From Escherichia phage NC29, in the sequence record NC_007827.1: DNA of 6,259 nt. The stretch is one strand, 5' to 3'. The notes below the pieces were generated by a model. The model did not search any database. It was not told the origin of the DNA and saw only the letters and a program-made list of their open reading frames with translations. The translations under genes and the position numbers were made by a program. The first letter of the stretch is position 1, and the number at the start of each line of letters is the position of its first letter. Below are positions 1 through 5,281 of the stretch, one piece after another.

Positions 1-64
1 TTATTGACAACTCCCAATCCCTTATGAGACTCTTGCTTCAATTAAATGACGTAGGAGTCTTTTT

Positions 65-433
65 ATGAAACCCGCTCATCGCCTTACTCATCCAATTCTT
101 GGTTCTTGGTTGTTTAAGTGTCCTGTTTATATTCGTTATGAGTCGCTTCATCATGGTCGCCTTATCAAGGTCCGTGCTGTTCGTGATTTGTCCCCTCGTC
201 AACGATTGATTGCTAATCCTAAGAATTGCTTTGACGTTGTTATTGCTGAAATTGATCTTACTTATGAAACCGTTACTTGGTTTGATTTTATGGATGAGGA
301 ATATGCCGCGTGTACCCCCGAGGTTATGCAGCTTCTCATTTCCTCTATTGACTCTTCTGATGTTATTCGTTCTGTAGAAGACCCGACCGTTGATTCAGGT
401 GATATGGATTGGCTTTATGAAATTGTGGAGTAA
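65..433 (+). CDS. hypothetical protein, H-A spacer ORF1 (122 aa; basic N-terminal half, strongly acidic C-terminal half)
   Basis: ATG at 65 preceded by SD-like TAGGAG (52-57, 7-nt spacing); uninterrupted 122-codon frame ending TAA 431-433; third codon positions strongly T-biased like the core phage genes; no resemblance I can recognise to phiX174 proteins A-H. Confidence 0.6.
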   Translation: MKPAHRLTHPILGSWLFKCPVYIRYESLHHGRLIKVRAVRDLSPRQRLIANPKNCFDVVIAEIDLTYETVTWFDFMDEEYAACTPEVMQLLISSIDSSDVIRSVEDPTVDSGDMDWLYEIVE

Positions 434-436
434 TTT

Positions 437-529
437 ATGGAAACTGTTATCGGAAAATTTATTGCTCTGGCTGTTGTTGCTCTTATGCTGTATGGAATTT
501 CCCGCTTGATTAGTAGGACTTTGAAATGA
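437..529 (+). CDS. hypothetical small hydrophobic peptide, H-A spacer ORF2 (30 aa, METVIGKFIALAVVALMLYGISRLISRTLK)
   Basis: ATG 437 lies 3 nt after the ORF1 stop, with GGAG (427-430) at 6-nt spacing; a hydrophobic core long enough for one transmembrane helix followed by a basic tail; T-biased third positions. Below the 60-aa cutoff of the supplied ORF track, found by hand translation. Confidence 0.4.
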   Translation: METVIGKFIALAVVALMLYGISRLISRTLK

Positions 530-702
530 AGTATTTTAGCCTTGTGGATGAACACTATGCTTATTGCCCTGATTCGCGCATTTTGCACATCACTCGTAGT
601 CGTGTTTCTGACCCTCGGTATGAGCGTCGTTTTCTTACTGATGAGGAGCATCTTGCACTTCTGGATTGGTTGAAAAATCGCCCAACTTATATTAATTCTT
701 GA
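526..702 (+). CDS. hypothetical protein, H-A spacer ORF3 (58 aa, MKYFSLVDEHYAYCPDSRILHITRSRVSDPRYERRFLTDEEHLALLDWLKNRPTYINS)
   Basis: ATG 526-528 overlaps the ORF2 stop TGA 527-529 (ATGA coupling); AGGA (515-518) at 7-nt spacing; T-biased third positions; stop TGA 700-702. Found by hand translation. Confidence 0.5.
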   Translation: MKYFSLVDEHYAYCPDSRILHITRSRVSDPRYERRFLTDEEHLALLDWLKNRPTYINS

Positions 703-728
703 CAAGTCTTTGATACACCGTCTATATT
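699..728 (+). promoter_or_regulatory. sigma70-like promoter upstream of gene A (pA-like): TTGACA - 18 nt - TATATT
   Basis: -35 TTGACA at 699-704 (6/6 consensus), 18-nt spacer, -10 TATATT at 723-728 (5/6); position equivalent to phiX174 pA just upstream of gene A. Confidence 0.45.
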
Positions 729-759
729 GCCCTCATAGTGATTCTACGAGGGCTTTTTT
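729..759 (+). terminator. intrinsic terminator-like hairpin plus T6 tract (T_H-like) immediately upstream of the gene A start
   Basis: GCCCTC (729-734) pairs with GAGGGC (748-753) and TAG (736-738) with CTA (744-746), 5-nt loop, followed by TTTTTT 754-759; GC-rich stem plus U-tract is the classic rho-independent architecture. Confidence 0.55.
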
Positions 760-2479: not shown

Positions 2480-2712
2480 CTCATAGATAAATGAAGCAGT
2501 GGTGCAAAGTAGTTTATCTAAGTGGTAAGTTCAGTGAAGGGTGACCCGCTCTAAGTAGCTGAAGGGTGTTGGATGTAAGGACTCCGCGATTGACTGGTTT
2601 ATACTGGAACACTATCGGGTCAGTGAAGTGGCTGCTGAGAAATAGCCCTCTAGCTTTACGAAGACTAGGCTACATCGCGAACACCATTGTTACTTTTTTA
2701 TGGAGGATTTAT

Positions 2713-5146: not shown

Positions 5147-5160
5147 AAGGCCGCCGCACT

Positions 5161-5256
5161 CTCGGTTATATGCCTGCCCAGTGTAGGGCGGACCGAGCCG
5201 TACGGAGATACCCGTGAAACTAGGAACGTGGAAGGCGTTAGCCGCCTTCCCTCCTG
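5161..5256 (+). other. candidate complementary (-) strand origin: three consecutive stem-loops in the GC-rich G-H spacer
   Basis: Hairpins: CTCGGT 5161-5166 / ACCGAG 5192-5197 enclosing 5174-5179 / 5186-5191; ACGG 5202-5205 / CCGT 5212-5215; GGAAGGCG 5230-5237 / CGCCTTCC 5243-5250 (perfect 8-bp stem, 5-nt loop); CTG at 5254-5256 just 3' of the last hairpin. G4-type phages prime at a multi-hairpin origin with DnaG alone. Confidence 0.4.
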
Positions 5257-5281
5257 CTAAGCCCAAAGGAGACTTTCAGCT

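What the first reader, a model, noticed from the sequence alone, without database searches (positions are those of the whole stretch)
65..433. ORF1 has a sharply bipartite charge distribution: basic N-terminal half, highly acidic C-terminal half
By hand count, residues 1-55 contain 11 K/R plus 4 His and only 2 D/E, whereas residues 56-122 contain 18 D/E and a single R, ending ...VEDPTVDSGDMDWLYEIVE. The acidic half is rich in aromatic and hydrophobic residues (W72, F73, F75, W116, Y118), a pattern seen in phage DNA-mimic and protein-docking tails. This is inference only; a host-interaction or anti-defence role is a hypothesis, not something the sequence proves.
Basis: inference. Interest (0 to 1): 0.6.

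Follow-up and report, generated by a model that had tools for sequence, protein, structure and literature searches.

The report
Charge-polarised orphan protein of alpha3-like microviruses
ORF1 is a real, conserved but never-characterised gene found only in alpha3-like relatives of phage phiX174; its basic-front/acidic-back charge split is genuine and conserved, but the protein is predicted to be one compact folded domain of unknown function, not a known DNA mimic or a floppy acidic tail.

The parts
53..57 (+). AGGAG ribosome-binding site, 7 nt before the ORF1 ATG
   Evidence: Read from the sequence. It is conserved in all six aligned relatives. Kodaira's alpha3 record M25640 marks an RBS at the equivalent place.
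65..433 (+). ORF1 coding sequence, 122 aa plus stop
   Evidence: ORF list. Intact 122-codon homologue in 12 GenBank relatives, with no indels and dN/dS 0.18. T at third codon positions is 0.59, like genes D, F and G.
65..229 (+). Basic half, residues 1-55 (net +9); the most conserved part of the protein
   Evidence: Charge counts. dN/dS is 0.06 overall and 0.03 within allele types for residues 1-65. Predicted four-strand beta meander plus short helix, pLDDT about 79-92. Basic positions H5, R6, K18, R40, R45 and K53 (window numbering) are invariant even in the 35%-identical P0020.
230..430 (+). Acidic half, residues 56-122 (net -17, 27% D+E, 12% aromatic); predicted folded
   Evidence: Predicted strands 57-64, 69-73, 78-82, 104-110, 118-121 and helix 85-96.
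260..388 (+). Hypervariable cassette, residues 66-108, present as discrete allele types
   Evidence: 60-69% nt identity to relatives whose other genes are 89-97% identical. Five types among the genomes compared at DNA level, plus further protein types. dN/dS is 0.10 within types and 0.35 between types. The types swap independently of F, G, H, ORF2 and ORF3. L025 carries a chimeric allele.
389..430 (+). Conserved C-terminal tip (V..DDMDWLYEI.E); it also carries the ORF2 ribosome-binding site GGAG at 427-430
   Evidence: Alignments. Low dS here (0.22 against about 0.7 elsewhere) fits an overlapping nucleotide constraint.
437..529 (+). ORF2, a 30-aa hydrophobic (single-helix membrane-type) peptide starting 3 nt after the ORF1 stop
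   Evidence: Conserved in all relatives. Annotated as hypothetical in phage Lilleven.
526..702 (+). ORF3, 58 aa; its start overlaps the ORF2 stop (ATGA)
   Evidence: dN/dS 0.08 across 19 distinct sequences. The start codon is GTG in most relatives.
699..728 (+). Near-consensus promoter TTGACA-18-TATATT for gene A (pA)
   Evidence: Promoter scan, 11 of 12 matches. Conserved in five of the six aligned relatives; NC35 has a 29-nt deletion here.
729..759 (+). Hairpin (GCCCTC...GAGGGC) plus T6, terminator-like, closing the H-ORF1-ORF2-ORF3 transcription unit
   Evidence: Read from the sequence. Conserved in the relatives, with arm changes in ID32 that keep the pairing. The automatic scan missed it. 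No terminator-like site lies between H and ORF1.

Best explanation
Shown: ORF1 is a genuine protein-coding gene restricted to alpha3-like microviruses. It is the first gene of a three-gene block (ORF1-ORF2-ORF3) between H and A. The block most likely rides on the late H transcript and ends at a hairpin just before gene A. ORF1 encodes a compact, mostly beta protein of about 14 kDa with no detectable sequence or fold relatives and a conserved electrostatic polarity. Inferred mechanism: it is a non-structural, cytoplasmic accessory protein that binds a partner encoded outside the phage. That partner is most likely a host nucleic-acid-binding or defence protein. The conserved basic half would be the structural or anchoring core. 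The acidic, aromatic-studded half would be a polyanionic (nucleic-acid-like) contact face, with the variable segment (residues 66-108) setting specificity or evading recognition.
For: Gene reality: intact in every alpha3-like genome examined, dN/dS 0.18 overall and 0.06 for residues 1-65, conserved RBS, microvirus codon bias. Folded domain: pLDDT 86 and pTM 0.78; the 35%-identical P0020 gives the same order of elements with pLDDT 80. Charge is selected as such: the N half is +6 to +9 and the C half -13 to -19 in all alleles, yet only D64, D74, E78, D113 and E119 (window numbering) are invariant acidic positions in that half. External partner: the 66-108 cassette is the most divergent segment of the genome. 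It is constrained within types (dN/dS 0.10) but differs between types (0.35). It co-varies with no phage gene: NC3/alpha3 share the cassette at 92% with F at 69% and G at 55%, while NC3/ID21 share G at 99% with the cassette at 54%. No signal peptide or membrane segment is apparent in the sequence. Established knowledge: solved alpha3 virions show only F, G, J and H.
Against: No partner, binding or phenotype has been observed, so the mechanism rests on composition and evolutionary pattern only. The whole protein carries only net -8 and has a strongly basic half, which is atypical for classical DNA mimics. General mimics such as Ocr do not need discrete specificity types. ORF1 is present in every alpha3-like genome seen, which fits a core lineage function as well as an optional counter-defence gene. 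It sits at the far end of the late transcript, which is not where an immediate-early anti-restriction gene would be expected. The alignment behind the model is shallow (19 sequences).
Confidence: 0.38

Rival explanations
1. ORF1 is itself a nucleic-acid-binding protein. The invariant basic beta-sheet half would bind phage ssDNA, replicative-form DNA or mRNA, for example to modulate replication, packaging or translation. The acidic half would auto-inhibit or recruit other proteins, the logic of a basic core plus acidic module seen in SSB or T7 gp2.5.
For: The basic half is by far the most conserved part (dN/dS 0.03-0.06). H5, R6, K18, R40, R45 and K53 (window numbering) are invariant even at 35% identity. 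The gene is universal in the clade, as expected for a core function. Alpha3-like phages differ from phiX174 in replication details (established knowledge: primase-dependent minus-strand origin).
Confidence: 0.25
2. The charge split is purely architectural. The basic and acidic halves neutralise each other within one fold or between subunits (head-to-tail oligomers). The protein's role, for example a regulatory or morphogenetic helper acting with ORF2 and ORF3, would have nothing to do with mimicry or nucleic acids.
For: Both halves are predicted in one rigid domain (pTM 0.78). ORF1 is tightly coupled to ORF2 and ORF3 (3-nt gap, ATGA overlap), and all three are conserved together.
Against: The net charges do not cancel (+9 against -17). 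Most acidic positions are free to move while the total is kept, which suggests exposed and not paired charges. The cassette types do not co-vary with ORF2 or ORF3.
Confidence: 0.2
3. One reading: the acidic half is a disordered, aromatic-tipped docking tail, like the SSB C-terminus or the disordered acidic mimic region of SPO1 Gp44.
For: High D+E content (27%), a conserved aromatic and acidic tip (DDMDWLYEI), and a borderline position on the charge-hydropathy plot.
Against: Residues 56-122 have block pLDDT 70-93 with five strands and a 12-residue helix, reproduced in P0020. The region is hydrophobic enough to lie on the folded side of the charge-hydropathy boundary. Purifying selection within types is strong (dN/dS 0.10).
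Confidence: 0.05
4. ORF1 is a divergent member of a known anti-restriction or DNA-mimic family (Ocr, ArdA, Ugi, Arn).
Confidence: 0.02
5. ORF1 is not a gene but a chance open frame in a T-rich intergenic region.
For: Most GenBank records do not annotate it. T-rich microvirus DNA does produce spurious open frames, such as the 41-codon frame over ORF3 (dN/dS 1.1).
Against: dN/dS 0.18 with no indels across 13 genomes, conserved RBS, a confident fold prediction, and conservation of frame and charge at 35% identity.
Confidence: 0.01

Closest known systems
[quoted passage not shown] 2006, as cited by Wichman & Brown 2010, PMC2935103); Lilleven hypothetical protein QBZ71502
   Same: Same locus (between H and A), same length, 70-76% amino-acid identity. 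ORF1 of this window is a member of this family.
   Different: This window carries a new allele of the variable cassette. It is about 75% identical to all GenBank alleles and 97% identical only to one metagenomic contig. The literature available here gives no fold, charge analysis or function for the family.
Phage DNA-mimic inhibitors: T7 Ocr, plasmid/phage ArdA, PBS2 Ugi
   Same: Small, cytoplasmic proteins with a folded domain that is 20-30% Asp+Glu and where total charge matters more than exact positions. The fast-evolving accessory character would also fit.
   Different: No sequence or fold relationship. ORF1 is beta-rich with a strongly basic half and an overall net charge of only -8. No target is known. 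It comes in discrete allele types, unlike general mimics.
Bacillus phage SPO1 Gp44 (PMC8208478)
   Same: The linear layout is strikingly similar. Gp44 has a folded DNA-binding domain at residues 1-55 followed by a negatively charged mimic region at residues 56-122 that contacts RNA polymerase. It is a precedent for a 'basic anchor plus acidic mimic' in one phage protein.
   Different: Gp44's N domain is a helical Xis-like fold. Its acidic region is 57% D/E and disordered, and it has a further C-terminal domain. ORF1's acidic half is 27% D/E and predicted folded. No homology was found. The matching residue numbers are a coincidence.
Acidic C-terminal tails of SSB / T7 gp2.5 / T4 gp32
   Same: A basic nucleic-acid-binding portion followed by an acidic, aromatic-tipped C-terminus.
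   Different: Those tails are short and disordered. In ORF1 the acidic part is 67 residues long and predicted structured, and no OB fold was detected.
Non-essential accessory proteins of phiX174 (K, A*)
   Same: Small non-structural microvirus proteins that modulate the infection and do not build the particle.
   Different: K and A* are overprinted inside or around gene A and occur in all coliphage microviruses. ORF1 occupies its own non-overlapping space and is confined to the alpha3 clade.

Membership tests
alpha3-clade H-A block ORF1 family (uncharacterised) | Significant full-length sequence similarity to the ORF between H and A of alpha3-like phages | tested here: met
   tblastn E 1e-50 to 2e-52, 100% coverage, 70-76% identity in 25 records. 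19 protein clusters.
alpha3-clade H-A block ORF1 family (uncharacterised) | Synteny: H - ORF1 - 29/30-aa ORF2 - 58-aa ORF3 - A | tested here: met
   Same order in the window and in all relatives and metagenomic contigs.
Ocr (T7 gp0.3) family | Sequence match to the family profile | tested here: not met
   Pfam scan at E<=10 returned only an irrelevant 12-bit hit. PDB sequence profile search found nothing relevant.
Ocr (T7 gp0.3) family | All-helical fold with DNA-like charge array | tested here: not met
ArdA family | Sequence or fold match to ArdA | tested here: not met
Ugi (uracil-DNA glycosylase inhibitor) | Significant structural superposition on the Ugi beta-sheet fold | tested here: not met
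DNA-mimic proteins (functional class) | Small folded protein or domain with a high Asp+Glu fraction | tested here: met
   Residues 56-122 are 27% D+E with pI 4.05 and predicted folded. The whole protein has pI 4.88.
DNA-mimic proteins (functional class) | Surface carboxylates arranged like a DNA phosphate backbone | not testable with these tools
   Model coordinates are not exposed, so no electrostatic surface could be computed.
DNA-mimic proteins (functional class) | Competitive binding to a DNA-binding protein | not testable with these tools
   Requires pull-down or biochemical assays.
SSB-type acidic docking tail | Intrinsically disordered acidic C-terminal segment ending in a free hydrophobic tip | tested here: not met
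   No segment has pLDDT below 50. The tip residues 118-121 form a predicted strand, the same as in P0020.
SPO1 Gp44-like anchor-plus-mimic proteins | Homology to Gp44, or a disordered region that is more than 50% acidic | tested here: not met
   No sequence hit. The acidic half is 27% D/E and structured. Gp44 features taken from PMC8208478.
Known anti-phage defence or counter-defence catalogues | Match to a PADLOC, PHROG or NCBIfam model | tested here: not met
   Zero hits for ORF1, P0016 and P0020 in PADLOC and NCBIfam. Zero PHROG hits for ORF1.

The most novel reading that the evidence does not exclude
ORF1 founds a new fold family of microvirus counter-defence or host-takeover proteins. It would be a charge-polarised beta protein whose acidic face mimics nucleic acid to block a host DNA- or RNA-binding defence or replication protein. 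Its recombining cassette types would be the footprint of an arms race. This would be the first dedicated anti-host accessory gene described in the phiX174-type (Bullavirinae) phages, and it could help explain why alpha3-like phages grow on K-12 and B strains as well as on E. coli C.
Probability: 0.25. Interest if true: 0.7.

Novelty: new member of a known kind. Interest (0 to 1): 0.4.

Why it matters
Bullavirinae are among the best-studied viruses, and the phiX174 gene list has been declared complete. Their alpha3-like cousins nevertheless carry three conserved genes that most records, including a 2026 genome paper (PMC13029530), still do not annotate. Several results together make ORF1 a concrete, testable candidate for a host-interaction factor in a 6-kb genome where a knockout is trivial to build. 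It is under strong selection, it has an orphan fold, it keeps a polarised charge, and it carries a recombining specificity-like cassette. If it proves to be a counter-defence or takeover protein, it would add a new fold to that repertoire and a new layer to microvirus biology. If not, it is still a missing piece of annotation for a model phage group.

Tried and rejected
1. Homology searches all found nothing outside the clade. These were Pfam, PHROGs, PADLOC and NCBIfam, a PDB sequence profile, an exhaustive HMM search of 1.84 billion representatives, a profile search including P0020, and tblastn against plasmids.

3. A Cys/His zinc site (C19, H29, H30, C55) is rejected. P0020 has R, T and K at the first three positions.

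4. Duplication of another gene of the same phage is rejected. blastp against A, B, K, C, D, E, J, F, G, H, ORF2 and ORF3 gave nothing significant.

5. An own strong promoter for ORF1 was not found. The conserved TTGACA at 4-9 has no acceptable -10 box, and the scan found none.

6. Restriction-site avoidance is uninformative. There are zero EcoKI and zero EcoBI sites, but by my own estimate only about 0.8 of each is expected by chance in 6.3 kb.

7. Natural genomes lacking ORF1 were sought by anchoring on ORF3. None was found.

8. The literature gave no functional data for the H-A ORFs. Rokyta 2006 itself is not held in the library.

9. The C-D spacer element gave no Rfam hit, no tRNA, no thermodynamic folding signal on either strand, and no copies in IMG/VR under two conserved patterns.

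Full report
**What the window is.** The 6259-nt window is a complete circular-type genome of an alpha3-like microvirus (Microviridae, Bullavirinae, Alphatrevirus). Megablast covers 96-97% of it at 92-93% identity with coliphages NC3, ID32, NC35 and WA13, and about 82% at 85% identity with alpha3, phiK and St-1. The gene order is ORF1, ORF2, ORF3, A (with B and K), C, D (with E), J, F, G, H. The finding, ORF1 at 65-433, lies in the roughly 760-nt "H-A intergenic region". The GenBank records of NC3, ID32, ID21, NC35, WA13, WA45, ID62, NC28, phiK, alpha3 and St-1 leave this region unannotated. Only phage Lilleven annotates three hypothetical proteins there. Kodaira's 1980s alpha3 record marks ribosome-binding sites in front of each of them.

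**Checking the observation.** Residues 1-55 hold 11 K/R, 4 H and 2 D/E (net +9, pI 10.97). Residues 56-122 hold 1 R and 18 D/E (net -17, pI 4.05). The named aromatic residues are present. A charge excursion of this size arose in only 5e-5 of 20,000 shuffles of the same residues.

**Is ORF1 a gene?** Yes.
- A 122-codon homologue is intact, without indels, in 12 GenBank relatives. The frameshifts in the old alpha3 and St-1 records are absent from the resequenced alpha3 record DQ085810.2.
- Nei-Gojobori dN/dS is 0.18 overall, 0.06 for residues 1-65 and 0.30 for residues 66-108.
- An AGGAG ribosome-binding site sits 7 nt upstream and is conserved.
- T at third codon positions is 0.59, the characteristic microvirus bias also seen in D, F and G.
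- I anchored on the conserved downstream ORF3 to recover alpha3-like genomes without relying on ORF1 similarity. Every genome recovered carried an ORF1 allele.
- The family is confined to this clade. It comprises 19-20 protein clusters, all on contigs of about 6 kb or fragments of them. An exhaustive profile search of 1.84 billion representatives found only three clusters. Nothing turned up in plasmids or in phiX174- or G4-like phages.

**Structure.** AlphaFold2 with the 19-sequence alignment gives a confident single domain (mean pLDDT 86, pTM 0.78, no segment below 50). The element order is four strands (3-9, 13-17, 21-28, 33-40), a short helix (44-49), three strands (57-64, 69-73, 78-82), a helix (85-96) and two strands (104-110, 118-121). 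The most divergent relative, P0020 (about 35% identical, from another alpha3-like contig), gives the same order of elements with its extra residues lengthening the helix (pLDDT 80, pTM 0.73). That second model used largely the same alignment, so it is not a fully independent check. The acidic half is therefore predicted to be folded and integrated, not a tail. On a charge-hydropathy plot it lies just on the folded side.

**Evolutionary pattern.** Four observations bear on function.
- The charge polarity is conserved everywhere. The N half carries +6 to +9 and the C half -13 to -19 in 11 representative alleles, even where the middle region is only 14-50% identical. Only five acidic positions in the C half are invariant. 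Selection therefore seems to act on bulk negative charge and not on particular residues.
- ORF1 is the most divergent gene of the genome. It is 76-80% identical at the DNA level to relatives whose A, D, F, J and H genes are 89-97% identical, and only 60-69% identical in codons 66-108.
- That segment exists as discrete types, at least five or six. Each type is under strong purifying selection internally (dN/dS 0.10), with far higher divergence between types (0.35). One metagenomic genome (L025) has a chimeric allele.
- The types are distributed independently of every other gene. NC3 and alpha3 share the cassette at 92% while F is 69% and G 55% identical. NC3 and ID21 share G at 99% but the cassette at 54%. 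ORF2, ORF3 and H do not track it either.

A constrained yet type-switching surface that co-varies with nothing in the phage points to a partner outside the phage genome.

**Expression context.** No terminator-like site lies between the H stop codon and ORF1. The TTGACA immediately after H is conserved but lacks a convincing -10 box. ORF2 is a 30-aa hydrophobic peptide that starts 3 nt after the ORF1 stop, using a GGAG inside ORF1's last codons. This overlap explains the low dS of the ORF1 tip. ORF3 (58 aa, dN/dS 0.08) overlaps the ORF2 stop. A near-consensus promoter for gene A (699-728) and a conserved hairpin plus T6 (729-759) follow. I infer that ORF1-3 are the tail end of the late transcription unit that also carries H. 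I also infer that transcripts starting at pA begin inside the hairpin and so escape termination.

**Interpretation.** The shown facts are these: a real gene, restricted to one clade, with an orphan compact fold, conserved polarity and a recombining cassette. My best-supported mechanism (confidence about 0.38) is a cytoplasmic accessory protein that binds a host-encoded partner, or possibly one from a rival phage. That partner is probably a nucleic-acid-binding or defence protein. Binding would be through the exposed polyanionic, aromatic-rich half, with the conserved basic half as core or anchor.

SPO1 Gp44 is a functional precedent for a basic anchor plus an acidic mimic in one phage protein (PMC8208478). 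It is not a relative, and its acidic part is disordered.

Several points weigh against this reading. No partner or phenotype is known. The overall charge is modest (-8). The gene is universal in the clade and sits at the end of the late transcript. The surface arrangement of the charges could not be computed because model coordinates are not exposed.

The rivals are:
- a nucleic-acid-binding role for the invariant basic half (0.25);
- a purely architectural charge complementarity, with a function tied to ORF2 and ORF3 (0.20);
- a disordered docking tail (0.05, contradicted by the models);
- membership of the Ocr, ArdA or Ugi families (0.02, tested and not met);
- not a gene (0.01).

**Comparison with what is known, and novelty.** The existence of these frames is not new. 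Wichman & Brown 2010 (PMC2935103), citing Rokyta et al. [quoted passage not shown] No paper available here assigns them a fold, a property or a function. A 2026 alpha3-like genome paper still lists only the 11 classical genes.

The window's ORF1 is thus a new allele of a known but uncharacterised family. It is about 75% identical to all GenBank alleles and 97% identical to one metagenomic contig. This analysis adds the verified and conserved charge polarity, evidence that the acidic half is folded, the orphan fold, and the cassette-type evolution. Interest is moderate. A specialist would not be astonished by an acidic orphan phage protein. It is, however, an easily testable gap in a model system.

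Noticed in passing
window 2521-2705 (C-D spacer, 2480-2712): A window-specific insertion of about 172 nt, absent from NC3, ID32, ID21, NC35, WA13 and alpha3. It accounts for the genome's extra length. Positions 2493-2649 match, at 75-79% identity, an unannotated stretch of about 155 nt in a large non-coding region of roughly 76-kb dsDNA Kuravirus coliphages (MN03, XT18/32/73, KarlSchell_Bas89, FS2B). It lies just downstream of the predicted gene-D promoter (2448-2476), so it should sit in the leader of the most abundant late mRNA. The closest relative, L040, carries the start of it too. Four-way alignment shows 7 compensatory pairs. There is no Rfam hit, no tRNA, no folding-energy signal on either strand, no copy in E. 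coli genomes and none in IMG/VR. A non-coding element shared between ssDNA and dsDNA coliphages remains unexplained.
   Followed up: partly
window 437-529 and 526-702: ORF2 (a 30-aa hydrophobic peptide) and ORF3 (58 aa, dN/dS 0.08) are conserved and translationally coupled to ORF1 in every alpha3-like genome seen. Neither has any family match beyond weak PHROG hits (E 0.03-0.2). ORF3 starts with GTG in most relatives but with ATG here and in ID32.
   Followed up: partly
window 548-673: A 41-codon hydrophobic frame overlaps ORF3 and is open in nearly all relatives. It has dN/dS of about 1.1 and has lost its start codon in NC3 and L029, so it is a by-product of T-rich codons and not a gene. The long Leu/Phe-rich frame over ORF1 (138-509 in WA13) is likewise broken in the window.
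   Followed up: yes
L034 2008-2472, L035, L036 (proteins P0016, P0018): Some alpha3-like genomes of 6.2-6.3 kb encode an ORF1 with a 32-34-residue acidic N-terminal extension (net -6 to -7; MKPLTSSEIEVINSAICDLDDSIEEVESL...). The usual start Met is replaced by F or S. The N-terminus evidently tolerates an acidic helix-like add-on.
   Followed up: partly
L025 210-578: A chimeric ORF1 allele. The first part of the variable cassette matches the alpha3/NC3 type and the second part matches the WA13 type. This is direct evidence of recombination inside the gene.
   Followed up: partly
L008 (NC35), region aligned to window 706-734: NC35 has a 29-nt deletion that removes the -10 box of the gene-A promoter and the left arm of the hairpin. 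How gene A is transcribed in that phage is unclear.
   Followed up: no
L003 / X60322 (alpha3) and L015 (St-1), ORF1 region: The old alpha3 and St-1 records show a frameshift within ORF1: tblastn returns two pieces, and St-1 splits into 108-aa and 35-aa frames. The resequenced alpha3 record DQ085810.2 is intact. These are likely sequencing errors that helped keep the ORF unannotated.
   Followed up: partly
window 5147-5281 (G-H spacer): A GC-rich (59%) 135-nt spacer with obvious hairpins in an otherwise T-rich genome, 88-98% conserved among relatives. From established knowledge of St-1, phiK and alpha3, this is the expected place of the primase-dependent complementary-strand origin. Not tested here.
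   Followed up: no
L001 (NC3) about 2476-2550, C-D spacer: NC3's short C-D spacer contains tandem copies of a GAGCTCTCTACATTT-like unit where the window has its insertion. The C-D spacer seems to be a hotspot for length variation.
   Followed up: no
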